Part shown: piece after piece, positions 5,430 through 24,100 of the stretch | Numbering within the stretch: position 1 is the stretch's first letter | Layout of the letters: each line of letters begins with the position of its first letter | IMG/VR virus record: IMGVR_UViG_3300042898_001199 | Span: 1 to 63,903 of that record | Length of the DNA: 63,903 nucleotides | Strand: one strand, 5' to 3' | Source of the DNA: a virus | Lineage: Duplodnaviria > Caudoviricetes | Notes under the pieces: generated by a model | Told to the model about the DNA's origin: nothing | Seen by the model: the letters and a program-made list of their open reading frames with translations, nothing else | Databases searched by the model: none | Made by a program: the position numbers and the translations under genes

Positions 5430-5433
5430 TACA

Positions 5434-5661: not shown

Positions 5662-5822
5662 AGACTAAAAGATATATCCTGACATTGCTCAATGAAACGG
5701 GAGGAGTAATTGACGCGAGAATATTTTACGCACTCAGTAGAGTGGATGCACTCGAGCAGGCAAAACTGTTCATGAATTTTCAAAATCTTAAACTTAAATT
5801 TAAACTAAACCTTTTTAAATAA
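5658..5822 (+). CDS. 54-aa early protein (not in ORF track)
   Basis: ATGA-coupled, fills the gap between neighbours. Confidence 0.55.
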   Translation: MKTKRYILTLLNETGGVIDARIFYALSRVDALEQAKLFMNFQNLKLKFKLNLFK

Positions 5823-5830
5823 TAAACACC

Positions 5831-6316: not shown

Positions 6317-6328
6317 AAAATAAACACC

Positions 6329-6577
6329 ATGAAAAAAGTAAATTCAGTAACAGCATCACGCTTCTTAGCTTGGTACTTCTCAGATTCAGATATGGTAGAA
6401 TCATTCGGCCAGCGTGCAGTAAAAATGCTACAGGATGAGGGGTTCGTGAATATCTCAGCAAGACAATTATTTGAAGATTGCGGATACATTCCTTCATTCA
6501 TCTGCGAACATGGGGACGTGGATTGGGATGATGCACGAGAGTACTCTCCTGAAGAAATAGAATTTATCAATGACTAA
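6329..6577 (+). CDS. early hypothetical protein
   Basis: ORF with AAATAAACACC-ATG leader, also present before 5831. Confidence 0.75.
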   Translation: MKKVNSVTASRFLAWYFSDSDMVESFGQRAVKMLQDEGFVNISARQLFEDCGYIPSFICEHGDVDWDDAREYSPEEIEFIND

Positions 6578-6595
6578 CCAATAAAACCAAACGCC

Positions 6596-6973
6596 ATGAA
6601 CACACAACAAGTAACACAGGAAGACATCTTCAAAGTAATCAACACACTTGCTATTCAGGTGCGAAATGACCTGATGGAGAGTGAGGTATTCGAAGATTCA
6701 GATACACTGGAAACGATAAAGACCATTGTCTTTCTAGCTCAACTACACAACTCTGATTGGAGCTACCCTTTTACCGAGGGAGATACTTACTATACCATCG
6801 AACATGATACAATTGTCGAGTCGGTGTGGGACGAGGAGAGTAAGGAGTTGTACCTGAGCGACAGCAATAAACTTTACAACCACTCAGACCAGCAATACTT
6901 CAGCAGTCTAGATGAAGCAGTACACTACTTCAAGAGTAAAGCTAAAACAACCCCTAAAATCTCATTGCTATGA
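6596..6973 (+). CDS. early hypothetical protein
   Basis: ORF with TAACCAA leader. Confidence 0.75.
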   Translation: MNTQQVTQEDIFKVINTLAIQVRNDLMESEVFEDSDTLETIKTIVFLAQLHNSDWSYPFTEGDTYYTIEHDTIVESVWDEESKELYLSDSNKLYNHSDQQYFSSLDEAVHYFKSKAKTTPKISLL

Positions 6974-7197
6974 ACGTAATAACCATTAAGAAACGCCCGA
7001 TGCAACAACACCTCGGAGGAAGTCAGGACATTGTCTTCTACACACGGAACAAGGCTCTCTCTCGCTTCTTCGAAATGACAGACGAGTTAGGCTACGAGGT
7101 GGAGGTAACCTACAAGAACAATCTTGTCACATACGAGGCAGGAGGGCGAGGCCATGATCATAGAATTGAACTTGAACTAACAAACGTACTAGTATGA
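6970..7197 (+). CDS. early hypothetical protein
   Basis: ATGA-coupled ORF. Confidence 0.7.
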   Translation: MNVITIKKRPMQQHLGGSQDIVFYTRNKALSRFFEMTDELGYEVEVTYKNNLVTYEAGGRGHDHRIELELTNVLV

Positions 7198-7373
7198 AAG
7201 AAACAACATTCTTCTTCAACGAGGTTGGAGAGACCTGCACCATCGAGGTGCATCTGAACCGCAAGCTAGACTACAGGAAGACCTTTAGCAAGGTGACATC
7301 ATTCTCTGAGGCAGTTGCCAAGTATGAGCAGTGGAAGGCAGACCAAGAAACATTTAAATCCGTAATGATATGA
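7194..7373 (+). CDS. 59-aa early protein (not in ORF track)
   Basis: ATGA overlaps at both ends. Confidence 0.65.
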   Translation: MKETTFFFNEVGETCTIEVHLNRKLDYRKTFSKVTSFSEAVAKYEQWKADQETFKSVMI

Positions 7374-7660
7374 ACGAGCAAGAATTTCTGGACTTCATGT
7401 ACAAAGAGTACATCGAGGTAATCGCAACGACTCAGCAGGTCTGTCCCATAACTTATGAACTATTGGACTACAAAACTTGTGTAGTGGTGGATGCTTATGA
7501 TGGTGATACTCTGAAGGATACGCAGGCACTCTCGCCTAACGCTATTGCAGAGGATAGCTTGAGGATAATCATAACCGACTTTGCTATTATGAGAATACGC
7601 CCAGTCTTCCTATCTTTGAACCCACTATTAAAGGACACAATCAAATCACTAAACAATTAA
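7370..7660 (+). CDS. early hypothetical protein
   Basis: ATGA-coupled ORF. Confidence 0.7.
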   Translation: MNEQEFLDFMYKEYIEVIATTQQVCPITYELLDYKTCVVVDAYDGDTLKDTQALSPNAIAEDSLRIIITDFAIMRIRPVFLSLNPLLKDTIKSLNN

Positions 7661-7664
7661 TCTA

Positions 7665-7823
7665 ATGGAACGAGACGAGAAAATCATCATCGGATGCGTA
7701 GCTGTGCTTATTGCCACGATATACTTCAGCATCCTGTTTAACATGAAGGCCATGGCCATAGTAAGCATGCTTGTTCTAGTCGCTGCCTTCCTAGTCGCAC
7801 AACTTATTGAATCAATTAAATAA
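7665..7823 (+). CDS. 52-aa membrane protein (not in ORF track)
   Basis: MERDEKIIIGCVAVLIATIYF..., two hydrophobic segments. Confidence 0.6.
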   Translation: MERDEKIIIGCVAVLIATIYFSILFNMKAMAIVSMLVLVAAFLVAQLIESIK

Positions 7824-7834
7824 ACCAAACACCC

Positions 7835-8239
7835 ATGAAAAAACAAATAGAAACATTAATCAGTCTAGCTCGCATGGTAGCAGACCTTCACTACAATTAC
7901 AATATCAAAGATGAGGTTGTAAACCACACGCACAACATCCGAGTAATTCAGGCTAACGAGAGAGATAATGAATTTATCGTGGTGGTATTCACTCGTAATA
8001 GACTTGATTTTAGTGTTCGTTTCTCTAACTACAGCGGAGTTAACTTGGAGTTCCCCTTCTCAGCAAATATTGAAGAGACCCTCGACCCTCTTATTGAAGA
8101 GGTGAGTGAGTCTCTGAACGAATGGCAGGCAAATAGTCAAGAGGATATAGTTCAAATGAAATTGGATGCCGTAGAGAAGAGAAGACAGACTTTGATAAAA
8201 TTAACAAACGAACTAAACGAATTGGAGGGCAAACTATGA
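7835..8239 (+). CDS. early hypothetical protein
   Basis: 134-aa ORF with TAAACCAAACACCC-ATG leader. Confidence 0.75.
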   Translation: MKKQIETLISLARMVADLHYNYNIKDEVVNHTHNIRVIQANERDNEFIVVVFTRNRLDFSVRFSNYSGVNLEFPFSANIEETLDPLIEEVSESLNEWQANSQEDIVQMKLDAVEKRRQTLIKLTNELNELEGKL

Positions 8240-8514
8240 AACACTTTGTAAAAGACATTGCAGACCAAGTAATGCTAGATGTATGTCCATCAGGAAGATT
8301 ACTAGCCTTCAACGAAGTCCATGTTGTGGATTGTGGGAACAAGAATATCAAGGTATACCTTCAAGGTGTAATTAACATGGATGAGGAGAACTTGATAATC
8401 CACACCGCAACTTACACGGATGATATGGAAGCAGATGAAGACTTGCCTGAGGACTGGAAAGAGTTCGATGACAGCGAGATTATTTATCTAGAAAAGCATT
8501 TACAATACTCGTAG
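8236..8514 (+). CDS. acidic early hypothetical protein
   Basis: last ORF before the terminator. Confidence 0.75.
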   Translation: MKHFVKDIADQVMLDVCPSGRLLAFNEVHVVDCGNKNIKVYLQGVINMDEENLIIHTATYTDDMEADEDLPEDWKEFDDSEIIYLEKHLQYS

Positions 8515-8534
8515 TTCATGGGTAAATTGGTTAG

Positions 8535-8570
8535 AAGAGAGGGGGTAGACTTTGTCTATTCCCTTTTTTT
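8535..8570 (+). terminator. intrinsic terminator ending the early operon
   Basis: GGGGGTAGAC-TTT-GTCTATTCCC followed by T7. Confidence 0.85.
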
Positions 8571-8761
8571 GTTTTCACTATCTTTGTAATCAATAGGTTA
8601 AACACTATCTCACTAATAAAAATACACGCTCACATGAATAAGCAAATATCACCCCGTAAAAACAACATGACTTACGCTGTAGTATACATGATGGTTGCTT
8701 TTAGAAAGCTCAGCAAAATCAACATCCAGAACGCATTTATCACAAAAAAAATTGGCCGTTT

Positions 8762-9085
8762 ATGATAGTAAGAGAAACCATTCAGGAGGGGACTTTAAAA
8801 CAAAATAAGAACCCATCAATAGAGATACCTAAGCATGTTTTAGACCACCTTATTTCATCTTGTAGGTCACACGCTGACGTATTAAACATGCACTATATAT
8901 GTAACAAGCAGAAACTCCCGTTAAGATTCATGAACGACCTTATCATCAGGAAGAAGCCTCTAAAGAATAGAGAGAAGATAGATTTGATGCTCAAGGGCTT
9001 GATTGAATACTGCGAAGAGGTAGACGAATTACGGCTCAAAATACAAAAGATAATAGATGAAATCGGTACACAAGACAAGGGCTAA
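8762..9085 (+). CDS. hypothetical protein
   Basis: 107-aa ORF; TATCTTTG promoter-like element at 8579-8586. Confidence 0.7.
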   Translation: MIVRETIQEGTLKQNKNPSIEIPKHVLDHLISSCRSHADVLNMHYICNKQKLPLRFMNDLIIRKKPLKNREKIDLMLKGLIEYCEEVDELRLKIQKIIDEIGTQDKG

Positions 9086-9296
9086 GTGGCTAATTTATTT
9101 TGCCAATAGGAATATCAACCCGAAGAAAGCTTTGATGGTATTCCGTCCTGAATATGACAAGCCTGATATAAGTAGGATGATGTCACTTTTCTTCGGTACG
9201 CCTAAATTTACCGAGGCTGACATTGAAGACTGGAGAGCAATTAAGAAATGTATAGAACGAACTGAAGATAGAAACAATGGCAAACTTTTCTCGTAG
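9057..9296 (+). CDS. hypothetical protein
   Basis: overlapping ORF in operon. Confidence 0.65.
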   Translation: MKSVHKTRAKWLIYFANRNINPKKALMVFRPEYDKPDISRMMSLFFGTPKFTEADIEDWRAIKKCIERTEDRNNGKLFS

Positions 9297-9564
9297 TAAT
9301 AAGTACAGAAGTCGGGCTGAGAAGTACATGGAAATTGACAGCCTACATAAAAGGGTTGTTGCCATACTCACAAAGACTGGCCTTAGAAATGATCCCAAGG
9401 CTTACCTGACATTTGATCTGGCTCTCTATCCCATGGATATCGATCAGAGGAGGAAGATTCTAAAGAAGATATTCAGCCCTGATGGGAGAGAGATTAAGGA
9501 GGAGCATAAACAACAAATAGAATTGTTAGAAACTTTTTTCGATAGGAATTGTAAAAGTTTGTAA
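9277..9564 (+). CDS. hypothetical protein
   Basis: ORF in operon. Confidence 0.7.
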   Translation: MANFSRSNKYRSRAEKYMEIDSLHKRVVAILTKTGLRNDPKAYLTFDLALYPMDIDQRRKILKKIFSPDGREIKEEHKQQIELLETFFDRNCKSL

Positions 9565-9580
9565 TTCTTTTGTATATTTG
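9549..9580 (+). promoter_or_regulatory. Bacteroidota primary-sigma promoter
   Basis: TTG(9549)-N21-TATATTTG(9573-9580). Confidence 0.75.
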
Positions 9581-9606
9581 CATAAACCAATAAATAATAA
9601 ATAACT

Positions 9607-9786
9607 ATGGAAACACACGACTTATTCTTCTGTCGCTACTGCGATGAAGACTTACTAGACGAAAGAATCAAAACCGTGGCCGAAGACCAGAACATCGAAG
9701 AGGATGAGGCCAAGGACATCATTGACACCGAGGGGGAGATTGGATTATGCAGAGCATGTCAAAGCGAAGAGGATTCAGACTGGTAA
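9607..9786 (+). CDS. 59-aa acidic Zn-finger-like protein (not in ORF track)
   Basis: CRYC...CRAC pairs; first gene after the promoter. Confidence 0.7.
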   Translation: METHDLFFCRYCDEDLLDERIKTVAEDQNIEEDEAKDIIDTEGEIGLCRACQSEEDSDW

Positions 9787-9811
9787 ATATTAACAAGTAA
9801 ATTACACACAA

Positions 9812-10681
9812 ATGTCAAACATAACAATTTCACCAAAGACGGTAATGCCGTTCATCGAACCTCGCAGAGAGGAAATGATTAAGCTGATGGGAGGAGAAGA
9901 AGTTCTCATGAGAGAGATGTCTTTCGCCATCCAAGCTGCTAACAACAACCAAGTGTTGGCAAATTCTAACCCACAATCAATTGCAATGGCTGTGTACAAC
10001 TGTGCATTGACCAAGTTGTCTCTGAACCCTGTAATGAACCTAGCTTATCTAGTTCCTTTCAAGGGCAACGCGAAGCTAATGCCAGGATATCAGGGGATGA
10101 TTAAGCTTATCTCTGACACAGGGATTATCAAGTCGGTATCTTCGGCGGTAGTTTATCGAGGGGACGATTTTGACTTTGTTCAGGGGACTAGCCCGGAGAT
10201 TATACACAAGCCTAAGGGTGAGACCTTCAAGAACAGCGATGTCATAGCCGTGTACGCAATCTTCGTACTACACAATGACGAGAAACTGTTCGAGATTATG
10301 TGGAAGCCTCAGATTGATGCCATCAAGAACCGATCGGAGACAGGGCGTAAAGATGAAGGGCCGTGGTCTACAGACTACGGGGAGATGGCACGCAAGACGG
10401 TTGTCAAGAGAGGTTGGAAGTCTATACCGAAATCATCTTTCGCACTAGACAAGATTGAGAAGGTTAACACGGCTATCAGCATCGACAACGAGGAGTACAA
10501 GACAGTCGAGTATGTTAAGATGAGCGAGGAGCAAATCGAGAGACTGCTTGAGAAGACAACCAACGTGGTAGAACTTGAGGCTGCACTATCTGACGAGTCG
10601 GTGATGATCGATCCAGAGCAGAAGAAAGAAATCATAGAGAAAGCTAAAAACAAAAATAAAAAAGGAGGTGACGATGAGTAA
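9812..10681 (+). CDS. recT: RecT-family ssDNA annealing recombinase
   Basis: LSLNP..LAYLVPF..GYQGMI and PWSTDYGEMARKTVVKR motifs. Confidence 0.9.
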   Translation: MSNITISPKTVMPFIEPRREEMIKLMGGEEVLMREMSFAIQAANNNQVLANSNPQSIAMAVYNCALTKLSLNPVMNLAYLVPFKGNAKLMPGYQGMIKLISDTGIIKSVSSAVVYRGDDFDFVQGTSPEIIHKPKGETFKNSDVIAVYAIFVLHNDEKLFEIMWKPQIDAIKNRSETGRKDEGPWSTDYGEMARKTVVKRGWKSIPKSSFALDKIEKVNTAISIDNEEYKTVEYVKMSEEQIERLLEKTTNVVELEAALSDESVMIDPEQKKEIIEKAKNKNKKGGDDE

Positions 10682-11357
10682 CTTGTTAAATGAAATCTTA
10701 AAGGAACAGGCCATGGCCGCAGATCAAAGGTCACAGGCATGGTTCAACGCTCGTGTGGGTAAGTTTACCTCATCAGAGATATACAAGCTTCTTACTAACC
10801 CTCAATCAAAAGAGGCCCGTGAGAAGGGAGAGATGTCTGAGACGGCTAAGACATACGTCATGTCTAAGGTTGCCGAGGAGATGGCCGGGATGGAGCAGAC
10901 TACTAACTCGGCAGCTACAGACTGGGGCTTGGACCACGAGGCAGAGGCTTGCAACCTATACGCAGAGATGATGGAGTCTCATGTTGACTCTACCGGATTC
11001 ATACCGTACGGAGACCACGCAGGGGGTTCTCCTGACGGTATCTGTTCACGCTTCGGAGTGATTGAGATTAAATGTCCTTACAACTTTGAGAATCACATTC
11101 AGAATCTACTCATAAAGGACGAGGCTGAGTTGCTTAAGGAGAGAAAGGCTTACTGGTGGCAACTTCAAATGAACATGCTGGTCGCAGGCAAGGAGGAGGG
11201 GATGTTTATATCTTACGATCCTAGAATGGATGGCAAGAGTAAATTACAAATAATTCCCGTACATTTGCAAAGCAACACAAAAGAAGTCATAGACACTGTC
11301 CTTGATAAAGCAGTAGCTTACAAGCAAATGTTAATTGAGATGATAAAAAACAGATAA
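10668..11357 (+). CDS. YqaJ/lambda-exonuclease-like recombination exonuclease
   Basis: QRSQAWFNARVGKFTSS, GGSPDG, EIKCP, YWWQLQ motifs; adjacent to recT. Confidence 0.9.
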   Translation: MTMSNLLNEILKEQAMAADQRSQAWFNARVGKFTSSEIYKLLTNPQSKEAREKGEMSETAKTYVMSKVAEEMAGMEQTTNSAATDWGLDHEAEACNLYAEMMESHVDSTGFIPYGDHAGGSPDGICSRFGVIEIKCPYNFENHIQNLLIKDEAELLKERKAYWWQLQMNMLVAGKEEGMFISYDPRMDGKSKLQIIPVHLQSNTKEVIDTVLDKAVAYKQMLIEMIKNR

Positions 11358-11359
11358 GT

Positions 11360-11686
11360 ATGTTAACAGACAAAAAGAAACACCAAATCATTGCCTCTGT
11401 GCTACACGCAAACTGTTTTGTAATACTATCTGACGAGATAGGGCCACCATACTGGGAAAAGGAAATCAAGATGATTGCCAAGAGGTATGTGGAAGCTATC
11501 GAGAAGAAGTACAAATTGCTAGCATCTGTTCTGTTCCAAATTGAAGGGGGGGATATGTATCAAAAGGCTCAGTCCGACTGTGAAGAACTTGTTGCCCTAA
11601 TTAGTAAGCTAGACTGGCACAAACACCACAAAGTAATTGAATACATTAAAACCCTTGAAGAAGATGAACAAGATTCAGAAAACTAA
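11360..11686 (+). CDS. hypothetical protein
   Basis: 108-aa ORF in operon. Confidence 0.7.
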   Translation: MLTDKKKHQIIASVLHANCFVILSDEIGPPYWEKEIKMIAKRYVEAIEKKYKLLASVLFQIEGGDMYQKAQSDCEELVALISKLDWHKHHKVIEYIKTLEEDEQDSEN

Positions 11687-12044
11687 TCTATACTTTATTG
11701 CTTTCATTGTCGTTCTTATTTTATCTGGAGTAATCCTGACTAAAATATACACTGGCGAGAAAGTAATGGTTAGATCTTACAACGATTCAATCTCAGCAAA
11801 CAATCTTAAAATAAGAGAGGCGCAAAAGATTGTAGATTCATTAAAGAAAGAGTTAGCTAAACAAGATGTAGAGTACGTCTACATAAAACAAAAAGAAAGT
11901 GAAACAATTAAAACCTACAAAAATGAAAAATCTATTATTGATCACGCTCCTATTAGCGAGCAGCTTGAGCTTTTCACAAAAAACCTCAAAAGGCTTGACA
12001 GCCTCAACAAGCAAGGATACTTTGATTTCAATCAACAAGAATGA
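11664..12044 (+). CDS. membrane-anchored coiled-coil protein (i-spanin-like)
   Basis: N-terminal TM LYFIAFIVVLILSGVIL followed by coiled coil. Confidence 0.55.
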   Translation: MNKIQKTNLYFIAFIVVLILSGVILTKIYTGEKVMVRSYNDSISANNLKIREAQKIVDSLKKELAKQDVEYVYIKQKESETIKTYKNEKSIIDHAPISEQLELFTKNLKRLDSLNKQGYFDFNQQE

Positions 12045-12372
12045 TGTTGACTTGTTAAACAAAGTAATTCTGTCAGAGAACTTCTACAGGTCTTTGTACG
12101 ATTTGAATGACGAAAAGATTAATTTGTTTGAGAGTAAAATAAAAACTCTTCAAGGTGTTGTGCTGTACGATTCAATTGTTATGAAAAACTTACAAGACAA
12201 TGTATACCTTTTAGAGTACGACTTATCTGTAGCTAAAGAAAGTGCTGACCGTTCTTACAGCGAAAGATCAAAAGCTGTTATAAAAGCATACGAGTGGAAA
12301 CAACGTGCAATTTTAGGTATTCCAATCTCTTTAGCCGGAGGATTTTTAATCGCAACTCTAATCCAACACTAA
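11923..12372 (+). CDS. secreted/membrane coiled-coil protein (spanin partner-like)
   Basis: signal peptide MKNLLLITLLLASSLSFSQ, C-terminal hydrophobic segment; overlaps the previous gene by ~120 nt. Confidence 0.55.
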   Translation: MKNLLLITLLLASSLSFSQKTSKGLTASTSKDTLISINKNDVDLLNKVILSENFYRSLYDLNDEKINLFESKIKTLQGVVLYDSIVMKNLQDNVYLLEYDLSVAKESADRSYSERSKAVIKAYEWKQRAILGIPISLAGGFLIATLIQH

Positions 12373-12373
12373 T

Positions 12374-12649
12374 ATGAAACCACTATTTGATCGTATAAAG
12401 TTTAAGCCACACATACGCAAGGCTGTAACGTCCGACATTATTATAACAGAGACTAATGAGAAAGTGTTTAAGGACGAGGGATACGTCACAGACATTGGAG
12501 AGGAGGTTGAGTTTGTAAAAGTTGGAGACAGGATTAAATTCCTAGAGAAAAATGTAACATGGGTTTCTGAAAACGATGTGACCTTTGGTCTTATCTCTGA
12601 GGATCATGTGTTAGCTATAATTGATGATGAGAACGTTCAGGAAGGTTAA
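12374..12649 (+). CDS. groES: GroES-like co-chaperonin
   Basis: MKPLFDRI..., VKVGDRI, LISEDHVLAII fit the Cpn10 pattern. Confidence 0.8.
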   Translation: MKPLFDRIKFKPHIRKAVTSDIIITETNEKVFKDEGYVTDIGEEVEFVKVGDRIKFLEKNVTWVSENDVTFGLISEDHVLAIIDDENVQEG

Positions 12650-12944
12650 GTACTGGAACGGCATCTTAATCGAATCTGGGGCCTGCTTTAGGTGGGTTAA
12701 TGACAATCAAGTTGTCCACTTCGATGGTGCTAAGGAAGGCTTCTTTCACTCTTGGGGGTTCTCAAGCGGAGAAACTGTCGGCATAGTTGAATCTCTCGAG
12801 GGGGAGATTCATCTTGTCGATCCTCCGTTCATTAGATTTACACACACAGATAGCACTACAGAATCTTTAAACGAGGCTCTAGAATTTATTAATGATGAGG
12901 AACAGAGACAGAGAGTAATAGATGTTATATTTAAAATGAAGTGA
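12621..12944 (+). CDS. hypothetical protein
   Basis: GFFHSWG..TVGIVE..GEIHLVDP..IRF motif. Confidence 0.7.
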   Translation: MMMRTFRKVKYWNGILIESGACFRWVNDNQVVHFDGAKEGFFHSWGFSSGETVGIVESLEGEIHLVDPPFIRFTHTDSTTESLNEALEFINDEEQRQRVIDVIFKMK

Positions 12945-13264
12945 TGAAGGTAAATGTAAAACCATTGTCTATAAACCAAGCGTTTCAGGGCAGAAGATTT
13001 AAATCTCCGGAATATAAGGCATACGAAAAAGAATGTCTTCTTAATTTACGACCGTTTAAGTTTCCACAGGGACAAGTATCTATAACTTTGATCGTGGGGT
13101 ACTCAAATAAGGCAAACGATATAGATAACAGTATTAAACCTATCCTAGATATACTACAGAAGAAATATACCTTTAACGATAAAGATGTATATGAGCTGCA
13201 TGTGTATAAGGTAATTGTAAAAAAGGGAGAAGAGTTCTGGCAATTTGATGTCAGGCCACTATAA
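12941..13264 (+). CDS. rusA: RusA-like Holliday junction resolvase
   Basis: PLSINQ, DIDNSIKPILDILQ, FNDKDV catalytic pattern. Confidence 0.85.
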   Translation: MMKVNVKPLSINQAFQGRRFKSPEYKAYEKECLLNLRPFKFPQGQVSITLIVGYSNKANDIDNSIKPILDILQKKYTFNDKDVYELHVYKVIVKKGEEFWQFDVRPL

Positions 13265-13609: not shown

Positions 13610-14029
13610 TTACAAGCCTTCCGAGTAATATGCTATCTTAAGGATCCCGTAAAGCTTGAAGACATACTCCCACCTCTTATCCTTCCGCAAGAGTTTTTCT
13701 CTCGACAAGGTATGCCAATCTGTATGATACTCCGCGTTGACAAAAATGATATTGGAGGGATTGAGACGATAGGCAGGAAAAGCTCCTTTGCCTAGGATGT
13801 GAAAGCAGATTGATGGAGAGAACTCTAACTCTCTTCCGGTTACATAACAACGATGCTTACGACTCTCCCATAGATGTTTGAAGAGATCCATCTCTCCAGT
13901 AGGCTTATACTTTTTTTTGAAATCAGTTCTCTTGAGTCCTTTTGATTTAGGTTTTGCGTCTTCTCTATAGTTTTTACAGAATGCACGATTAAAATCCGTA
14001 CAAAAACACTCCTCGGCTTGGCACTTCAT
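13610..14029 (-). CDS. HNH-like nuclease (Ref/NinG-like)
   Basis: HRCYVTG..CFHILGKG..NII..YHTDWH. Confidence 0.6.
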   Translation of the reverse strand: MKCQAEECFCTDFNRAFCKNYREDAKPKSKGLKRTDFKKKYKPTGEMDLFKHLWESRKHRCYVTGRELEFSPSICFHILGKGAFPAYRLNPSNIIFVNAEYHTDWHTLSREKLLRKDKRWEYVFKLYGILKIAYYSEGL

Positions 14030-14042
14030 GGGCGTTGTGTTT

Positions 14043-14120
14043 AAAACAAATAAGGAGGATTGCTCCCCCTTATATGTAACCTAATAAATAATCAATAAAT
14101 CTATGAGAAACAATTGAACA
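14043..14120 (-). ncRNA. candidate sRNA antisense to TAACC-AATAAAT..ATG leaders
   Basis: promoter TTTG-N21-TATATTTG (14156-14124), ~75 nt non-coding, then GCAA-tetraloop hairpin (14050-14073) plus U-rich tail. Confidence 0.55.
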
Positions 14121-14167
14121 TTGCAAATATACAAAATAATCTTTTGTAATTACAAATGTTAATAAAT

Positions 14168-14293
14168 TTAATTCTCTTCGTCTGGAACTTCTTCCGTGAC
14201 CACTTCGTAATTTCCCCACTCAATAGCCTCTTGCTCGTTTAGTGTTTCGATGTAACCGTTCTCGGTAAACATTCTATATTTAGTTATTATCAT
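14168..14293 (-). CDS. 41-aa fibre-associated small protein (not in ORF track)
   Basis: ATGA-coupled to the tail fibre stop. Confidence 0.55.
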   Translation of the reverse strand: MIITKYRMFTENGYIETLNEQEAIEWGNYEVVTEEVPDEEN

Positions 14294-16254
14294 CGTGCTG
14301 TTGTTAAGATATTTTCATAACCGATATAGTCGCAATAAAAACCTCTCGTTGTGATGCCTATTGTTTTTGCAAGTCCTGTTTTCATAAGAACATATCTGCT
14401 ATTTGATGCAAGCGGAATGTTGGTTGTGTGCGTTGCGATAGCTGTACCATTAACGTAAAATGTAACCGATGTTCCTGCTGCATTAATCTCTATTCTTAAC
14501 TTATTCCAAGCCGATGCCGTTACTGCCGTTGTTGATGTCGTTAGTGTACGCACTGAGTTAGCAACCGTTACACATTGCCAGTTAGCACTTGCTACCGTTC
14601 CATTTGCAGTACCGCCTTCATCGTATGTAATAAATACACCATCTGCTTCTGAGCTATTTGAAATGACTGAGCCAAAGCCAAAAATCATTCTATACCGTTC
14701 AAGCGCAGTGCTTAAATTATTTATGTTAATTAACGCTTCGTAGTTCCATGCACCGCCACCAAACCAAAGTTGTGCGGCTCCCGAGCTGCTACAATAATTG
14801 ATGTAGTTAGTAGCAATTATATTCGTTTGAAAAAACGCTACTCCCTGCTGATTTGTTCTGTTAGGAATCTGTGATCCTACAATTAAACCTAATGAACCAC
14901 CCGATGCAAATGATTGGCCCCCATCTAACGTTGCGTTAGTTAAAAAGTCCGTAAAGAAAGATACCATTCTTTTGCCCTTGTCAATAAATGACAAAGAATT
15001 CACAGCGTCTACCGTTGGGAATTTTACTCCTGTTCCATCTATTGCTAACGAGTTCTGTTTGTTGGCTGCATCTTCGGGGGTGAAGCCTAACGCATTTTGC
15101 TTGCCGTTGAATGTAGCCCAATCTGTTGATGATAGCTTTCCTGTATTAGTAGCCGAGGCAATAGGGACATTAAACGTATGAGTAGTTCCTGTTGAGGAGA
15201 TGGCAAAGTCTGTTCCTGCTGTTCCTGTAGCTAGCGTTTGAACAGCTCCTGCCAATGAGTTAATGGCGGTAATACCTGTACCTGCCAATATACCTGCCTG
15301 CTGAGTAACTGTTAAGATTACTGAAGCAGCTGATGGAGGAGGAGATCCTGCGGCATAAAACTGCATTGTTACACTAGCAGCAGCAGTTGTACTCCACATC
15401 AACTCATAATATTGACCTCCGACTACATCAAGCAGATAGTTCCATGAAACTACACAATGTCCGTTAACACTACCATGTTTAGCTGGTACTCCAATAAAAC
15501 CACTTGACCCAGGTACATCTACTCCGTTTAATCGAAGCCAAATAGTTACATCATGTTCTTGATTATCTGTGTTTTGAAACTGGGATGAGAACTGAAGGTT
15601 GTATACACCTGTGTGAGCAAAGGTAATTCTTGTTAAATTGGTTCCATTAGTAATTACCGAGATGCCATTGGCTAAATCGATAGTTCTAAATATCATCGGG
15701 TAACCGGTATTGCTTACAGCCGCAGTTTGAGTTATGTCATCTTGCCACGCTCCGTAGTACCCTAAAGGGGTTGGAGCAGTTCCTGAAACTAATTCGTGAT
15801 AAGCACCTGCATCCCAATAGTATGCGATTCCTGTAGACTCGTCAATATATATTACTGAGGGAGTACCTACAGCAGGAAAAGAGAAGTAGTCGGGATAAGC
15901 CGCCACAACTCCTCCAACAAAGGTGGGTCCAGGGCAACATCCTTGGATAACGTCTGAAATTAAAAAGGCGTATATGTCGTAAAGTCTACTTACATAAGCA
16001 TCACTTGTGTCAGATGGGTCTATCCCTGCTGAGTATATCTTATTGCTTGTCGCTCCATAGATGGCAATTACATTAAATACATTGAAAGAGAGAGTCTTTA
16101 CGCTGTTTGAGAATACAATTGTCTTGGCTGTATTGTTCTCAGATCCAACAGAGACAGAGCTTGTAATGTTGAAAGAATCTACAATATCTGATCCGTTGTA
16201 AAACTGGACTATCCCGTTGGTTAAACGCTGTATTTTCGTTACATTTACATTCAT
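14290..16254 (-). CDS. tail fibre / receptor-binding protein
   Basis: G/T/S/A-rich; FPAVG..YID..YYWD linker, C1q/TNF-like ITFAHTGVYNLQFS, GKLSSTDWATFNGKQ repeat, lectin-like C-terminus. Confidence 0.75.
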   Translation of the reverse strand: MNVNVTKIQRLTNGIVQFYNGSDIVDSFNITSSVSVGSENNTAKTIVFSNSVKTLSFNVFNVIAIYGATSNKIYSAGIDPSDTSDAYVSRLYDIYAFLISDVIQGCCPGPTFVGGVVAAYPDYFSFPAVGTPSVIYIDESTGIAYYWDAGAYHELVSGTAPTPLGYYGAWQDDITQTAAVSNTGYPMIFRTIDLANGISVITNGTNLTRITFAHTGVYNLQFSSQFQNTDNQEHDVTIWLRLNGVDVPGSSGFIGVPAKHGSVNGHCVVSWNYLLDVVGGQYYELMWSTTAAASVTMQFYAAGSPPPSAASVILTVTQQAGILAGTGITAINSLAGAVQTLATGTAGTDFAISSTGTTHTFNVPIASATNTGKLSSTDWATFNGKQNALGFTPEDAANKQNSLAIDGTGVKFPTVDAVNSLSFIDKGKRMVSFFTDFLTNATLDGGQSFASGGSLGLIVGSQIPNRTNQQGVAFFQTNIIATNYINYCSSSGAAQLWFGGGAWNYEALININNLSTALERYRMIFGFGSVISNSSEADGVFITYDEGGTANGTVASANWQCVTVANSVRTLTTSTTAVTASAWNKLRIEINAAGTSVTFYVNGTAIATHTTNIPLASNSRYVLMKTGLAKTIGITTRGFYCDYIGYENILTTAR

Positions 16255-18095: not shown

Positions 18096-18127
18096 CAAAT
18101 TTACGTCATTTTGTTATTTGCTTTCAA
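18096..18127 (-). promoter_or_regulatory. promoter for the lysis cassette, probably leaderless
   Basis: TTG-N21-TAAATTTG ending 5 nt before ATG 18090. Confidence 0.6.
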
Positions 18128-21100
18128 TTTTATTGTCAATAATCTTGAAATAATTAGTTTTTATAGGCTTAACATTTGTCAACTTCTTATTGTATTGATA
18201 CAAGTCGTAGTAATATCTTTCTAAAGCTTGTTGACCACCTGCCTCACTAGCTTCATACTTACTGTAATCAGTATCTGTTTCAATTGATTTAGTGATGTAA
18301 TCAGACACTTCTTGATCGTATTCCTCTTTAGAGAATCCCTCTAAGAATTTACCTAACGCAACATCATCAAGGAAAGTTAAGTTTTCAAAGTTTAACTTAG
18401 GATAATCAGCAGGATCAACATCATACTTCAACTTCTTCTTAGCGTCAAACTTTGCCTTCTCAGCTAAGAATTTAATTACCGCATATTTACCCTCATCATT
18501 TCTATCTTTCAAGGCATATCTATTATTCTTCAACTCATCTTGTATGTAGTTCTTGAACATTGATGTAGCCTCTTGAGTCAGAGCTTCAGATCTTTCTTTT
18601 CTCTTTTCTGCTGAGACAAATTTAGAGTTGTCTTGTACAGACAAAACACCTACACCGTTCTGATCAAAGTTCAACACACCAGCTACCAAGTTGTATTTAC
18701 CGTCAGATGATAAAATAACTACGTCTTGTTGAATAGCAACCTCATCTTGAAGCGACTTGATAAAGTCTCTAGAGAATGGAATTTGCTTACCATCCATAGC
18801 AAGTATTAAGTTCGTTGCCATGATCGTAGCGGAAAGCATTTTATTTAGGTCTGCTGTTTCTTCGTTGAACAATTTACCACCCTCTTCCCATAAGTCATAA
18901 ATAGTTGCCTTGTTGTGTCCTGGCTCATCAAGATAATCTTTATATAACTTTTGAGCTTCTTGCATCAACATATATACTGGAGGAACGCTAGTTGCAAATG
19001 CTAAAGCGGCATACTTTTCTACAGCATCATATTTTTCAAAGTCAATACCTTCTGTAAAATAAAGAGATTGTAGAACTTCATCAATAGGTTGTCTTTCTGC
19101 ACCTTTCATATTTCTAGCAAACTGCAATAAAGATATAGCCATCGCTCTACCAGAAGCACCGTATCTAGAGGTGGTTACATTGGCCGCTAGATTAATACCC
19201 ATAGAGGCGATCATCTTCCACATCTTGTCCGGGTTAGTAAACATTTCTAAAGTTTCTTCACCTTTTTTCTTTTCCTTGTCATCATCACTAAAGAAAGCTC
19301 TTTCAATACCTTTTACAGCAGCAAATATCACAGTATACATAGTCAAACTTGTAGCTGAAGTGGCAAATTTAAATAATCCTCTTCCTAGATCTGCTCCCTT
19401 ATTCATCCGGTCATCCTTAGTGATACCTCTTCCAGCTCTCTTAGCTCCGTAAAGCATGTTGCTAACGTCTCTGTATACAAAGTTGTTGAATAAGTTAAGC
19501 ATTTGAGCGACAGTATCATTTGATGATACAAGACCTTTACTAACGTCAGATTTGCTTCCCTTGCCTGTCAATGCCATTTTAGGTATACTAAACAAATCGG
19601 GCAACCATCTGTAGTTTGCTCTTGCCTGACCTTTGAATGAACCACCTTTAATAGATTGAATTCTCTGATCTGCAAATGAGGCAGCCCTATCTAAATCATA
19701 TTTGTAATCACTATCATCAAAATGTTTAGCTTCAGAATAATCTTCGCCAGTTAAACGCTTGAACTCTGATCTAAAATAAGACATCCATTCCCCAGGAGTT
19801 AATGGTGCTGTTAAGTTGTGCAATGAAGCGATTGAGTTTTCTAATTGCTGAGAGAAAGTATTCTTTGTAAGGTTTCCTTTCTTAGTAGTTACCTTGACCT
19901 TAAAATCCCAGTTTAAATTAGCTACAGGGCTGCCAAATTTCTCCATAAGATTTTTAGCCTCTCTGTAAGACTTGGGGTCAAAACCTCTAAGGCTTAAAGT
20001 TCTAAAAATACCAGAACCTATATTTGTTAAAGTCTCAGCTGCTGTTCTTCCAATACCAATCAAAAGTTTAGCCGCAAAAGATTTTGTCAACTTTGTTAAG
20101 AAGTTATTTGCAGATCTGCTTAATTGATGGTCAACACGATTTCTGTTTGACTGTTGAAGAGCGTTTAATGTTTTGACATCTGCATCTCTTCCTTCCGCTC
20201 TAGCCGCCTCTCTTGCGTTTTTAAACACTTCATTAACGTAAGATATTGCGTTGCTAATATAGAAATCTCGTGCAGATTCAAAGGCGTTGTTTGCCACAAG
20301 AGAATCAACATTGAATTGTAATGGCCCAGCAGGATCTTTTGACACACGACTGTAAGATGACTGAGATCTAACAGTACCTCCAACAGCACCACCATATCCA
20401 AGCTCAACATTAGAGTCTTCAGACATTCCCTTTCCAATATATCTACGAGGAGAGAAGAACTCTGTCAGCTCACCATTAACACCTCTTACAGCGTTAGCGT
20501 TGATAATTAACTCGCCAGAAGTTCTGTTGGCCTCTCTAAATGCACTGTAAAGCTTTTGCTCGCTCTCAGACATCAAAGAAGAAGGGTCGTTAAGATAAGC
20601 TTCGTATATCTTTCTATAATCTAACTTGCCGTTCGTTACAAATGCAGGGTTAGATATTAAGTTGTTGTATACGTCTTCTACGATATTCAAGACACCTTCC
20701 TCATCGTATATCGCACGCTCGATAGAATCTTCTTTTAGCTGATTGCCTAACCAGTCATTCGTATTCTCGTTATACTGATAAGCTTTATGACCTGAGTCAA
20801 GGATATGAGAGAGTATACCAACTCTGTGTTTGAAATATTTCTTAGCACTTACAGAACCTTTTGCAGTCTTAACTCTATCTTTTAAGAATAAGAATTTACG
20901 ATTTGCAAATGATAAGTCAGCAGTTTTCTTGTAGTAAGAATCTAATATCTGATTTACCTTATCGCTCATCTTCTTAAACGATCTGTCGATAGGAGCAACA
21001 ACATATTGATATAAAGCATCTCCTTCTTTCAATCCAAGAACGTCTTCCCATTGGGCAGCCTCTTCAGACGATAACTTTCTCAACAAAAGATTAACCCCTT

Positions 21101-24100
21101 TCGTTAACTTTTTATAAATATCACCTAGTTGATTTACAATTCTTAATCCAGCCTCTTGCGATCTAATCTCAACACGATTAACCATTTCACGAACTTCCTT
21201 TTCCGGCATGAAGCCGTACTCCATTCTGTCTAAAGCTTCGTTTAATTTTAACAAGTCTTTTACATCTAAGTTCATTAACTCGTTAGCAGACAAGCTTCTT
21301 AATCTTTCAAACAAGCTTTTTTGCTCACCAACAAATAAATCGTTAGTAGTAATGCTTGAAATCTTCTGGAACAAATCATCTGTCAAACCTTCTTTCAAAG
21401 TGTCAATTTGATCTTGATGATTTGCCTCATAGACTCTCAGCCCATTTTCCATAGTGTAAAGATCTCCTGAGGCCCATTGCTCGTGTGTAGCGGCATCAAT
21501 TAACCCCTGGTTATACAGCGAGTCCAAAATTCTTTTAGCCTTGTTTACAGATCTTACAAATGCGGTATACTCCTCTAGCGTGTCAATAGGCATAGACTTG
21601 ATATCTGTTAGTAGATCAAAATAATCTGCCGGCAGAAATTCTTTCTTGCCTAAATCTGCGCTAAAAGCCTTGTCAGCCAAAGACATATCTAATCCCGTAT
21701 GATCAGGAACCGGCTTTGCCAATCTAGCAACCGCGTCTAAATAACGATCCATCTCTGCATCAGTCAATAGAGGATTGTTGTCCGTGTCAAACAAAGGAAT
21801 AGATACGAATCTTAAAACATCTTCTGTAAATTCATTGTGCCTTCTCTTAAGGGCTGTCTTTCTATTAGAAGCTAAAGCATCCATTTTAGCAGCAAACTCC
21901 TTGTTAGCAACAATCTTATCAACATACTGTATGAAGTTGTCAATTTGCTTGTCTGTAAGAGATGTCACTGCACCTGTAGCTCTGTTTACAATAGCTGAAA
22001 TTTGCTGGCTATTCAACCCACTCAGTTTAGCTAATTTTAAATATTCCTTAACAAAGTATCTAAAACTATTACGTTTGTTTTTCTCGTCAGCCTTAGCTTG
22101 CTTAATATTTTCTTTTGTTTGAGATAATTCAGTTCTCAGTTCTTTTAGTTTTTCTTTTAACTTAAACACATCAGGCTTTTCATCACCTCTCTTAGCCTTA
22201 AGTTCAGCCTTGTTTATTTTATCCCACTGTGCATTTACAGCGTCTTTTAACTCGTCAACCGTAAAGAACTCCATGCCATCTCTTGTGGCATCAGCAAATG
22301 CTTTTTCTATAGCAATAGCTTTTGAAGAGTTATCCATTTCGGAATATATCTTAGCAACAGTAGCAATATCTTCAGCTAATTTATTTTTTAAGTCCCTTTC
22401 AATATTCTCCTCAAACTCTCTTTTTTTCCAAGAAGACATATCTCTAAAGCCTTTAATCTTTCTAGCTTTAGCAATCAAGTCATTTACTGTATTTAAAATA
22501 CCAGCACCTTTCCTTACCTTATCCGCAGACTCGTCAAGAAGTAAACTGTATTCCAATTTATCACTATTATTCATTTGAAGTTTAGTAGTGATGTTTTCCG
22601 ATTTGCCTGTTGAGGTTTTATTTTTCTCAGCCAATACTTCGTTAGCCTCAAACATTTCTAAAGCTGGGTTGAACTCAATAGAAGAAGGATAATCTTTATC
22701 AGGTCTCTGATAAAACTCTCCCTTCATTTTCTCAGTTGTCTCAGCTCTTAAATCTTCACCCCACTTAACAACAATCATTGGATAACCTAAATTAGCCGCT
22801 TCTTGAGCAATGAATGCAGCTTGTTTATTAGGATCAAAAGCCTGGCCTGGATACATCTTCTCAAACGTAGCTTTTGCCGCATCATATAAGTTCAATGGAT
22901 CCTCATTAAAAGGATACACATTATCTTTAGGTATTCTTACAACATAACCATATTTACCTGATACATCTAATACGTCAGGTCGAGTGTAGTACATGCTGAT
23001 ATTTAACCCCGGTCTTTCGTCTTTTCCTGTTCTTGAGGTGTTTTTACCAAAGTACTTAGGATCGATAGAAGATATTTTATTTGGAGAGTAGTGGTAGAAC
23101 AAGTAATTACCTTGGTCATCCTCGGTCATATGCTTAGTTAACTTAGCATTGTCTACTAAAGATTTAACTTGAGACTTAGACACGAAATTTTTAAATCCTT
23201 CCGTATCTTTTTTGGAACCTAATACATGAACTTGTTTATTTGAATCAACCGCTATCTGATCCATCTCTGGAGTTAGCTCGTTAAATTTCTGGTATGCAGG
23301 CAATCCGTTCTCATCAACCGGCCCAACATATTCACCTATATATGTATTATTTTCACCTTCCGTTTTAAAGTCAACATAATTATCTTTATCAAGACCCTTG
23401 TAAGCAATAATAGCGTCAGCACCGTTTGTTACTTTAGAAACAGTCAACTCTTTAAGACCTGCGTATCCTCTTCTCCAGTTGGCATCTATATCAACTACAT
23501 GAAAATTATTAACATTAAGAATTGCAGCTGAAATTCTACCTTTGCCACCACCTGTATAGTCAGCAGATTTATTTTTATTAAGTGTCCAATATAAACCCTT
23601 GCCTAAGTTCTTAGCCCCTGTACCTTTTTCAGGATCTAAGTCTTCCGCTTCAATCATATCTGAATTTTCAGATCCTCTGTAAAAGATATTTTGCAATAAA
23701 CTTTTTGGGAAAATATTTTTGAGGTACTCGGCATATTTTTCAACTGTCCCAATAGATTTTAATTCGGGATTTTGTTCAAACACTTCGTTTAAAACTGCAC
23801 GTTGAGTATCATCTATTTGAGATTTAACTTGAGCTTTATATTTTATACCAGTATTAATTCTAACTACTGAATAAGGTATATTTCTAGCTCCTGCAAAATT
23901 AGCCGCATATTCTAAATCTCTTAAAGGAGTATTATCATTTTCAATTTTTTCTGATGTTCTAACTTCACCATCTTTTACTGAAGATAAAATATCTTTATAA
24001 TTTTTCCTTTCTGATAACATATGGACAGTTACTCTTTGGCCGTCTTCTGTTTTCATTACTCCTGGATAAGAAATGTGTTTTCTTTTTTTCGCTGGAATAT

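What the first reader, a model, noticed from the sequence alone, without database searches (positions are those of the whole stretch)
14043..14156. Stand-alone promoter-to-terminator sRNA complementary to AATAAAT..CTATG leaders
A consensus minus-strand promoter is followed by ~75 nt and a GCAA hairpin whose G-U pair works only on the minus strand. The RNA is the reverse complement of TAACCTAATAAATAATCAATAAATCTATGAGAAAC. That closely resembles the leader of the recombination operon (TAAACCAATAAATAATAAATAACTATGGAAAC, 9583-9614) and leaders before 55727, 63293 and 63679. The plus-strand ATG gives only 4 codons. Inference: a trans-acting antisense repressor of a class of phage, and possibly host, mRNAs.
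Basis: partly seen in the sequence, partly recalled or inferred. Interest (0 to 1): 0.78.

Follow-up and report, generated by a model that had tools for sequence, protein, structure and literature searches.

The report
Conserved short phage RNA unit, target unknown
A phage of a Flavobacterium-like host carries a strongly conserved promoter, short unstructured U-rich RNA and terminator next to a nuclease gene, but the proposed pairing with phage mRNA leaders is no better than chance.

Summary
On the minus strand at 14156-14041 lie a Bacteroidota-type promoter (-33 TTTG, -7 TATATTTG), a predicted start near 14119, about 45 unstructured U-rich bases, and an intrinsic terminator (14073-14050 plus U-tract). 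No coding frame is conserved on either strand.

The unit is conserved in every relative with upstream DNA. Promoter boxes, a 19-base core (14104-14086) and the hairpin are invariant or nearly so, while neighbouring bases vary like third codon positions. The hairpin shows compensatory changes.

Complementarity to phage leaders is no better than dinucleotide shuffles in the window or in 3 to 4 of 5 relatives' genomes. The best target, the leader of the gene at 9607, is marginal and missing from two relatives with the same core. No ortholog group is a conserved target.

The unit is not stand-alone here: the terminator sits 20 bases before an HNH-like nuclease gene, so any mRNA of that gene carries this RNA as its leader. 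A distant lineage has a probable homologue facing the nuclease gene, so the short RNA itself is probably the conserved product. Its partner is unknown. One metatranscriptome fragment crosses the promoter.

The parts
14153..14156 (-). -33 element TTTG
   Evidence: Sequence. It lies 21 bases before the -7 box. TTG is invariant in 23 aligned sequences and diversity is 0 among 21 close relatives. Consensus from PMC6847099, passages.
14124..14131 (-). -7 element TATATTTG (TAnnTTTG type)
   Evidence: Six of 8 positions are invariant in 23 sequences. The box is also present in L120 and in L256/L260. Consensus and positions -12 to -5 from PMC6847099 and PMC9723704, passages.
14119..14119 (-). predicted transcription start (+/- 2), inferred only
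   Evidence: G of the -7 box is at -5 (PMC6847099 passage). Not measured.
14107..14118 (-). variable 5' segment of the RNA
   Evidence: Diversity over 14123-14107 is 0.29, like third codon positions at 0.30. Two sequence versions exist among close relatives.
14076..14106 (-). conserved unstructured U-rich core; 14104-14086 is invariant among close relatives
   Evidence: Diversity is 0.08, and 0.00 for 14104-14086, in 21 distinct sequences. No conserved pairing. The sub-motifs UCAUAG and UUGAUU recur in distant lineages with variable spacing.
14050..14073 (-). terminator hairpin, 10 pairs, GCAA loop
   Evidence: In 22 sequences, 93.6% of cells are paired, 5 of 10 pairs show changes on both sides, and 0 of 500 shuffles reach the observed values. 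Among close relatives the only varying loop base gives GCAA, GAAA or GUAA.
14041..14049 (-). U-tract of the terminator
   Evidence: T-rich in all lineages, but interrupted in L120 and L125.
13610..14029 (-). 139-aa HNH-like nuclease gene, reachable only through the terminator
   Evidence: ORF. Invariant H77, K81, G82, N93 and H102 in 27 homologues. Model pLDDT 84.8. The top Foldseek PDB matches are HNH domains, though none has E <= 0.001. PHROG HNH endonuclease at E 0.0027; no Pfam match.
14168..14293 (-). 41-aa ORF, last gene of the tail-fibre operon before the unit
   Evidence: 86-92% identical copies lie next to the tail-fibre gene in L036/L037. Nucleotide homology with L037 (92%) stops at 14177.
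9585..9609 (+). best predicted pairing partner in the window (5' UTR and AUG of the first gene of the RecT operon); marginal
   Evidence: Duplex of -17.5 kcal/mol, rank 1 of 88, reached by 11 of 200 shuffles. Duplex of -24.4 with the 45-nt segment, reached by 13 of 300 shuffles. Not conserved in G001/G003.

Best explanation
This is a conserved non-coding transcription unit of phages of Flavobacteriia-like hosts. The host RNA polymerase starts at a TTTG/TAnnTTTG promoter near 14119. It transcribes about 45 unstructured U-rich bases and mostly stops at the intrinsic terminator (14073-14041), giving an RNA of about 78 nt.

The same terminator ends the tail-fibre operon and stands 20 bases before the HNH-like nuclease gene. 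Polymerases that read through therefore make that gene's mRNA with this RNA as its leader.

I take the short terminated RNA to be the selected product. It would act through its single-stranded core (the UCAUAG and UUGAUU motifs) on a partner not yet identified: a host RNA or an RNA-binding protein rather than the phage's own leaders.

Shown: conservation of promoter, core and hairpin; covariation in the hairpin; absence of coding; position relative to the genes.
Inferred: the transcription start, termination efficiency, existence of the discrete RNA, and action in trans.
For: 1. Three islands of constraint stand in a neutral background. Among 21 distinct close relatives, diversity is 0 at the -33 and -7 boxes, 0.08 in the core (0.00 over 14104-14086) and 0.035 in the hairpin. 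It is 0.29-0.32 in the flanking non-coding bases and 0.30 at third codon positions.
2. The hairpin covaries: 5 of 10 pairs change on both sides and 0 of 500 shuffles reach the observed values. The G-U pair is kept as G-U in 14, G-C in 7 and A-U in 1 of 22 sequences.
3. No conserved structure lies upstream of the hairpin. No ORF is conserved on the opposite strand, where the frame runs 4-75 codons.
4. There is one copy per genome. The covariance model gives one strong match in each of the window and G001, G002, G003 and G005; all other matches have E >= 0.01.
5. The host type fits the promoter type. Of 80 phage records matching the terminase, 79 are phages named for Flavobacterium, Cellulophaga, Tenacibaculum or Maribacter. 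Consensus from PMC6847099 passages.
6. The unit and the nuclease gene are separable.
- In L036/L037 the pair is inverted between the same neighbours.
- In L256/L257/L260 and G006-G008 a probable homologue lies on the strand opposite to the nuclease gene, with no gene of its own strand downstream. It scores 37.7-39.4 bits at E about 1e-4, is the best match in each genome, and has a -7 box, UUCAUAG, a UUGAUU motif and a hairpin.
7. Other terminators of the window lack the U-rich core.
Against: - No discrete RNA was seen. The only RNA-library record found is one 138-base insert (14081-14218, depth 5.4, adapters at both ends). It crosses the promoter and stops before the hairpin. It carries no strand information and DNA carry-over is not excluded.
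- In all homologues of 57% identity or more that have enough upstream DNA, the unit is the immediate upstream region of the nuclease gene: 36 of 36 viral loci and 11 metagenome loci. This fits a cis role as well.
- The homology of the L256-type unit rests on 38-39 bits. The best presumably unrelated terminators score up to 32.5 bits.
- No partner was found. Phage leaders do not pair better than shuffles and no ortholog group is a conserved target.
- The host genome is unknown, so host targets could not be tested.
Confidence: 0.45

Rival explanations
1. The RNA is a trans-acting antisense repressor that pairs with the A-rich leaders and start codons of a class of phage mRNAs (9607, 55727, 63293, 63679 and others) and blocks translation initiation.
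For: - The core is single-stranded and conserved.
- Its complement resembles real leaders. A 24-pair imperfect duplex covers the whole predicted 5' UTR and AUG of the 9607 gene, and an 11-base word is shared with the 55727 leader.
- TAACCAATAAATA-like words are enriched: 14 against 4.9 expected, with 0 of 100 shuffles reaching 14, and 7 of the 14 lie in plus-strand leaders.
- Two relatives show an excess. In G005, 15 of 74 leaders hold 8-base seeds against 6.3 expected, reached by 7 of 1000 shuffles. In G003, 20 leaders reach <= -10 kcal/mol against 9.8 expected, reached by 0 of 200 shuffles.
- Bacteroidota initiate on A-rich, unstructured leaders without Shine-Dalgarno pairing (PMC6847099, abstract and passages). 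A U-rich RNA could therefore mask them.
Against: - In the window, every global measure is no better than dinucleotide shuffles.
- G001, G002 and G006 show no excess by any measure. G003 shows none by seed counts: 9 leaders against 5.5 expected, reached by 129 of 1000 shuffles.
- Summed over the five genomes, 8-base seeds number 48 against about 39 expected, roughly 1.2 sd by my arithmetic on that call.
- The best target is marginal and its promoter-proximal gene is absent in G001 and G003, which keep the core.
- The best of 43 ortholog groups is not exceptional: P of the null minimum is 0.6.
Confidence: 0.12
2. A cis-acting leader and attenuator. The promoter is the nuclease gene's own promoter. 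The terminator keeps expression of a potentially harmful HNH nuclease low or conditional, the core is the binding site of a factor that tunes termination, and the short RNA is a by-product.
For: - The terminator lies 9-25 bases before the ATG in all 24 distinct upstream sequences.
- No other promoter can fit between the terminator and the ATG.
- The unit and the gene move together between the window type and the L036/L037 type.
- 0 of 39 loci that have the 101-aa neighbour but no nuclease gene give a model match at E <= 0.01.
- Even the 47%-identical homologue (L125-127) keeps a U-rich run, a hairpin and a T-rich tail before the ATG.
- T4 free-standing endonuclease genes are also held down by terminators and hairpins (PMC2988022, passages).
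Against: - No alternative (antiterminator) pairing is conserved. The short frame at the start of the RNA is absent in the second sequence version.
- In the L256 type the unit faces the nuclease gene, which is there joined to RusA's stop codon.
- A simple leaky terminator would not need an invariant unstructured 19-mer.
- The loci lacking the nuclease gene come from more distant phages, so their lack of the unit may only reflect distance.
Confidence: 0.22
3. A DNA-level element. The conserved 19-25 bases are a protein-binding site, such as an operator or recognition site of the neighbouring nuclease as in I-TevI autorepression. It would sit between an ordinary promoter for the nuclease gene and an ordinary operon terminator.
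For: - The core is conserved at the sequence level without any structure.
- It lies next to a nuclease gene in all three arrangements.
- Precedent: the I-TevI operator resembles its homing site (PMC2988022, passages).
Against: - The spacing between the two sub-motifs changes from 1 to about 13 bases between lineages. That is easier to accept for RNA than for one protein site on DNA.
- The site lies about +15 to +45, downstream of the promoter rather than over it.
- No close relative lacking the nuclease gene was found, so an empty homing site could not be compared.
Confidence: 0.1
4. An RNA partner of the nuclease. The short RNA binds and restrains, or directs, the HNH-like protein. The terminator sets the ratio of RNA to protein, as in type III toxin-antitoxin loci.
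For: - The order promoter, short repetitive RNA, terminator, protein gene matches the type III layout (PMC3401426, passages).
- The core is built of loose 6-8-base GAUU/GUUU-type repeats.
- RNA and gene are adjacent in all three arrangements.
Against: - Tandem Repeats Finder finds no tandem array.
- The protein has an HNH fold and is not an endoribonuclease family of type III systems; PADLOC gives no match.
- In the L256 type the RNA is not co-transcribed with the gene.
Confidence: 0.05

Closest known systems
Trans-acting phage or prophage small RNAs with their own promoter and intrinsic terminator (for example lambda OOP, P22 Sar, P1/P7 c4; recalled, not read here)
   Same: A short non-coding transcript between a host-type promoter and a terminator hairpin, with a conserved single-stranded segment.
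   Different: Those have defined complementary targets. Here no target passes a shuffle or conservation test. The host is Bacteroidota-like, where Hfq-type helpers are not expected (recalled). There is no Rfam match.
Small RNAs at the 3' end of an operon that have their own internal promoter and share the operon's terminator (for example MicL, DapZ; recalled)
   Same: The unit follows the last gene of an operon and uses the operon-end terminator, in the window and in the L256 type.
   Different: Here the promoter lies in the intergenic space, and in the window a further gene follows the terminator.
Lambda late promoter, 6S RNA and tR' (a short terminated leader before genes that need read-through; recalled)
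   Same: Promoter, short terminated RNA, then genes reachable only by read-through.
   Different: Only one or two small genes lie downstream. No antiterminator gene or recognition hairpin was identified. The core has no conserved structure.
Type III toxin-antitoxin loci (ToxIN, CptIN, TenpIN; PMC3401426, passages)
   Same: The order promoter, RNA, terminator, protein gene, with the terminator able to set the RNA-to-protein ratio.
   Different: There is no tandem array, the protein is HNH-like rather than ToxN-like, and the element is phage-borne.
Regulation of free-standing homing endonuclease genes in T4-like phages (PMC2988022, passages)
   Same: A small HNH-type gene sits in a variable junction between operons and is insulated by a terminator. 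The cassette changes orientation between relatives.
   Different: In T4 the terminators lie inside or around the genes and the promoters are phage middle or late types. Here a host-type promoter lies upstream of the terminator. Homing activity was not tested.

Membership tests
Any Rfam family | Match at the family's gathering score | tested here: not met
   0 matches over the whole window. With loose thresholds on 13980-14220 the only match is SIB_RNA at 14.1 bits against a gathering score of 56, E 2.2.
Intrinsic (Rho-independent) terminator | G+C-rich stem, short loop and a following U-tract on the transcribed strand | tested here: met
   10 pairs, loop of 4, T-rich tail. Pairing is kept with compensatory changes. 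The G-U pair works on the minus strand only.
Intrinsic (Rho-independent) terminator | Transcripts end there | not testable with these tools
   The only run is kept as contigs and no piece covers the hairpin.
Bacteroidota primary-sigma promoter | -7 element TAnnTTTG with no G at the two n positions | tested here: met
   TATATTTG at 14131-14124, conserved. Consensus from PMC6847099 passages.
Bacteroidota primary-sigma promoter | -33 element TTTG at a suitable distance | tested here: met
   TTTG at 14156-14153, 21 bases upstream, invariant among close relatives. The 19-21 base optimum is recalled.
Bacteroidota primary-sigma promoter | Mapped transcription start | not testable with these tools
   No raw reads were available. 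The contig spans the site.
Trans-acting base-pairing sRNA | Discrete short transcript | tested here: inconclusive
   One RNA-library contig (14081-14218) crosses the promoter, with no strand or end information.
Trans-acting base-pairing sRNA | Conserved single-stranded seed | tested here: met
Trans-acting base-pairing sRNA | Complementarity to targets above a composition-matched null | tested here: not met
   Window. Relatives: no excess in G001, G002 or G006, mixed in G003, excess in G005.
Trans-acting base-pairing sRNA | Target conserved across relatives | tested here: not met
Transcription attenuator or riboswitch | Conserved alternative structure competing with the terminator, or a conserved leader peptide | tested here: not met
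   RNAalifold finds only the terminator. The 6-codon frame at the start of the RNA is lost in the second sequence version.
Type III toxin-antitoxin locus | Tandem array of RNA repeats before the terminator | tested here: not met
   Tandem Repeats Finder returns 0 rows.
Type III toxin-antitoxin locus | Toxin of the ToxN/CptN/TenpN endoribonuclease families | tested here: not met
   No PADLOC match. HNH-type invariant residues and fold matches.
HNH nuclease (the neighbouring gene) | His, Asn and His of the beta-beta-alpha-metal motif | tested here: met
   H77, N93 and H102 are invariant in 27 sequences.
HNH nuclease (the neighbouring gene) | Profile or fold match | tested here: inconclusive
   No Pfam match. 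PHROG HNH endonuclease at E 0.0027. No PDB sequence match. The Foldseek top ranks are HNH domains, but the best E is 0.11 at probability 0.96.

The most novel reading that the evidence does not exclude
In phages of Bacteroidota, whose hosts start translation on A-rich, unstructured leaders without Shine-Dalgarno pairing, a leader-derived U-rich small RNA masks those A-rich start regions on early phage or host mRNAs. It would be an RNA counterpart of the T4 RegA translational repressor (recalled). The same terminator would meter a mobile HNH nuclease. The excess of seed matches in G005 and the full-length duplex with the RecT-operon 5' UTR in the window would then be the visible part of a broad, low-specificity interaction that shuffle tests cannot separate from composition.
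Probability: 0.12. Interest if true: 0.75.

Novelty: new member of a known kind. Interest (0 to 1): 0.42.

Why it matters
Very little is known about non-coding RNAs of phages that infect Bacteroidota, and about RNA-based control in hosts that lack Shine-Dalgarno-led initiation. This unit has clear, conserved signals: promoter, a 19-base invariant single-stranded core and a covarying terminator. It recurs in dozens of uncultured freshwater and marine phage contigs, so it is a well-defined candidate for experiment.

The comparison also shows that A/U-rich complementarity to leaders in such genomes must be judged against composition-matched nulls. Here the attractive antisense reading does not survive them.

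Tried and rejected
- Coding on the plus strand: rejected. The frame from the ATG runs 4-75 codons in relatives.
- Palindrome at 14156-14143 as an operator: rejected. It is not palindromic in relatives.
- Known RNA family: none. tRNA or tmRNA: none.
- Second copies in the same genomes: none with E < 0.01. G001 and G003 each hold a 32-bit match that looks like another U-rich terminator; I did not follow it up.
- Exact 23-base core in viral contigs: 25 contigs, all already found through the nuclease gene.
- Close relatives lacking the nuclease gene: not found through the 101-aa protein or RusA.
- Bacterial genomes: only two distant protein matches, which were no help for the host.
- GenBank phages by DNA: no match.
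- RNA evidence: one run, kept as contigs, holding 0.09 of the sampled words. Parts of the stretch without cover say nothing.
- Type III toxin-antitoxin membership: rejected.
- Literature: two keyword searches listed no paper on a small RNA of a Bacteroidota phage (listings only). This is not proof of absence.
- Supplementary files were not consulted. The promoter and terminator tables of PMC9723704 are in supplements that I did not see.

Full report
**Setting.** The window is a whole virus record of 63,903 bases, estimated 96% complete. Small early genes lie on the plus strand from 3340 to 13264. They include RecT (9812-10681), an exonuclease and RusA. A long minus-strand block runs from about 52183 down to 13295. 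It holds the terminase (46497-48902), structural genes, a 4137-aa ORF and a 654-aa tail-fibre-like gene (14290-16254). Replication genes lie on the plus strand after 52500. Of 80 GenBank phage records that match the terminase protein (24-27% identity), 79 are named for Flavobacterium, Cellulophaga, Tenacibaculum or Maribacter. A Bacteroidota host is therefore the working inference.

**The observation.** The finding lies in the 138-base gap between a 41-aa ORF (14168-14293) and a 139-aa ORF (13610-14029), both on the minus strand.
- Promoter. The sigma-70 scan gives only 9-of-12 matches. The minus strand reads TTTG (14156-14153), 21 bases, TATATTTG (14131-14124). This is the -33/-7 consensus of Bacteroidota, TTTG/TANNTTTG, whose G sits at -5 (PMC6847099, passages; PMC9723704, passages). 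The start is therefore predicted near 14119.
- Terminator. A 10-pair hairpin with a GCAA loop (14073-14050) and a T-rich tail follow. The pair 14067-14056 is G-U, so the stem is intact only on the minus strand.
- RNA. It would be about 78 nt, with an MFE of -18.9 kcal/mol, z -3.0, nearly all from the hairpin.
- Plus strand. The ATG gives 4 codons. In relatives the same frame runs 4 to 75 codons.

The description is correct, except that the promoter is of the Bacteroidota type.

**Conservation.** The 139-aa protein retrieved 37 related viral loci. A profile of the family added L120/L121 (61% identity) and L125-127 (47%).
- In 36 of 36 loci where upstream DNA is present, the same layout precedes the gene: boxes, a U-rich stretch, a hairpin, a T-run and then the ATG. 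L120 shows it as well. L125-127 keep the U-rich run and hairpin but have no clear promoter.
- Six of 8 positions of the -7 box are invariant across 23 aligned sequences.
- RNAalifold finds only the hairpin as conserved structure.
- A covariance model built from 24 distinct sequences finds one strong match per genome in the window, G001, G002, G003 and G005, and nothing else below E 0.01. These sequences match by construction.
- On 22 model-aligned sequences, 93.6% of cells pair and 5 of 10 pairs change on both sides. No shuffle out of 500 reaches the observed pairing or covariation, and slid partners give 44-69% pairing.
- I measured diversity among 21 distinct sequences from the window and the 30 loci of at least 90% protein identity. 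Identical rows and any locus shorter than the 590 bases were dropped, and I did not list which. Diversity is 0.30 at third codon positions of the 139-aa gene, 0.32 between the stop codon and the -33 box, 0.29 around the predicted start and 0.23 between the U-tract and the ATG. It is 0 at the two boxes, 0.08 in 14106-14076 (0.00 over 14104-14086) and 0.035 in the hairpin.

This is selection on a promoter, an unstructured 19-25-base core and a terminator.

**The antisense claim.** I called 89 ORFs by a simple rule and took their leaders.
- Duplex energies. With the 45-nt unstructured segment against 88 leaders (-40 to +10), mean energy and counts of good duplexes were no better than 300 dinucleotide shuffles. 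Only the best duplex, with the 9607 leader at -24.4, was reached by few shuffles (13 of 300). With the 30-nt core and leaders of -30 to +6, the result was the same: the minimum of -17.5 was reached by 11 of 200 shuffles, and the other measures by 77-106 of 200.
- Perfect 8-base seeds in the window. They occur in 8 of 88 leaders, against 10.6 +/- 4.0 for shuffles; 762 of 1000 shuffles reach 8.
- Relatives' whole genomes. G001, G002 and G006 show no excess. G003 shows an excess by energy counts (0 of 200) but not by seeds (129 of 1000). G005 shows an excess by all measures (1-8 of 200; 7 of 1000).
- The best target. The duplex with the 9607 leader spans its whole predicted 5' UTR and AUG. Its ortholog ranks 3 of 97 in G002. 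G001 and G003 keep the core but lack that promoter-proximal gene, and their RecT leaders rank 24 and 56.
- Conserved targets. Across 43 ortholog groups present in at least 4 of 6 genomes, the best combined rank is unremarkable, with P of the null minimum at 0.6.
- A weak leader motif does exist. TAACCAATAAATA with up to 2 mismatches occurs 14 times against 4.9 expected, and CAATAAA is in 3-6 of about 90 leaders per genome. It marks only a few leaders.

A broad, composition-driven interaction cannot be excluded.

**Relation to the neighbouring gene.**
- The protein. The 139-aa protein belongs to a small family without Pfam domains: 44 clusters, all unnamed. H77, K81, G82, N93 and H102 are invariant in 27 sequences. 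The model (pLDDT 84.8) is most like HNH domains, although no match reaches E 0.001.
- Dependence on the terminator. The hairpin ends 9-25 bases before the ATG in all 24 distinct sequences. The gene can therefore be transcribed only through the terminator, and in that sense the unit is not stand-alone.
- It belongs with the nuclease gene, not with the tail-fibre operon. L037 is 92% identical to the window over 14991-14177 and unrelated beyond that point. In L036/L037 the unit plus gene lie inverted, downstream of RusA on RusA's strand.
- Loci without the nuclease gene. 39 loci have the 101-aa neighbour but no nuclease gene; three of them are cut at the contig end. None has a model match at E <= 0.01. 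These come from more distant phages.
- Metagenome contigs. I searched 62 of 66 loci. Eleven homologues of at least 57% identity have the unit directly upstream. L223, with only 82 bases of upstream DNA, gave no match. Of 48 loci below 47% identity, 45 gave none.
- The exception. The other three, L256, L257 and L260, hold a match of 37.7-39.4 bits (E about 1e-4) on the opposite strand. It has a -7 box, UUCAUAG, a UUGAUU-type run, a hairpin and a T-run. It lies after a collagen-repeat gene and a 104-aa ORF, and converges on the 3' end of the nuclease gene, which there starts at RusA's stop codon. It is the best match in each of three records, G006-G008.

If this is a true homologue, the short RNA unit is separable from the nuclease leader and is the conserved entity. 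Unrelated terminators reach up to 32.5 bits, so the homology is probable rather than certain.

**Expression.** One lake metatranscriptome run, kept as contigs, holds part of the region. A 164-base contig at depth 5.4 carries a 138-base insert identical to 14081-14218, with sequencing adapters at both ends. Two pieces lie in the tail-fibre gene. If it is RNA, it shows that transcripts from the upstream gene run across the promoter into the core. It carries no strand or end information, and DNA carry-over is not excluded.

**Conclusion.** The best reading (0.45) is a conserved short RNA made from its own promoter and ended by a terminator that also closes the upstream operon and gates the HNH-like gene. 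Its single-stranded core would be the working part and its partner is unknown. The rivals are:
- a cis-acting attenuator of the nuclease cassette (0.22);
- a DNA-level protein site (0.10);
- an RNA partner of the nuclease in a type III-like layout (0.05). The last fails that family's defining features (PMC3401426 passages).

Terminators and hairpins that hold down free-standing endonuclease genes are known in T4-like phages (PMC2988022 passages). Two keyword searches listed no paper on a small RNA of a Bacteroidota phage.

Noticed in passing
window 3319-9603 and 55711-55723, plus strand: A word like TAACCAATAAATA, often starting with the previous gene's stop codon, recurs about 15-25 bases before several early-gene start codons. 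It occurs 14 times against 4.9 expected, and 7 of the 14 lie in plus-strand leaders. In G003, four consecutive genes carry an AATCAATAA-type word at -21 to -28. Its role is unknown.
   Followed up: partly
window 18114-30527, minus strand: A single ORF of 4137 aa in the structural block.
   Followed up: no
window 9573-9580, and upstream of 1331-2122, 32031-32738, 52517, 60913 and 62904: Several further TAnnTTTG-type boxes sit 19-36 bases before start codons. The one before 9607 shares a 15-base stretch with the promoter of the RNA unit.
   Followed up: partly
window 13610-14029 and its 44 homologue clusters: A small family of HNH-like proteins without a Pfam model. It has an N-terminal cysteine cluster and an invariant H...KG...N...H. 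Closer members have lost the usual zinc cysteines around the active site.
   Followed up: partly
window 14143-14156: A perfect 14-base palindrome overlaps the -33 element. It is not kept in relatives.
   Followed up: yes
G001 about 29926-30008 (L072:9926-10008) and G003 1954-2036 (L079), minus strand: A second U-rich stretch plus terminator scores 32 bits with the model in both genomes. It may be an unrelated terminator or a distant paralogue.
   Followed up: no
L207 (1-231 and 1448-1684): Two inverted copies of the first 80 codons of RusA on one short contig. This may be an assembly artefact.
   Followed up: no
window 1331-2122 and 57771-58406: Matches to a PAPS-reductase-like family and a family labelled ferredoxin (auxiliary metabolic genes) in PHROGs.
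   Followed up: no
window 10650-10680 and relatives: The exonuclease gene (10674-11357) is preceded by AAGGAGG, a Shine-Dalgarno-like word. That is unusual among this phage's A-rich leaders, and it is conserved in G001-G003.
   Followed up: no
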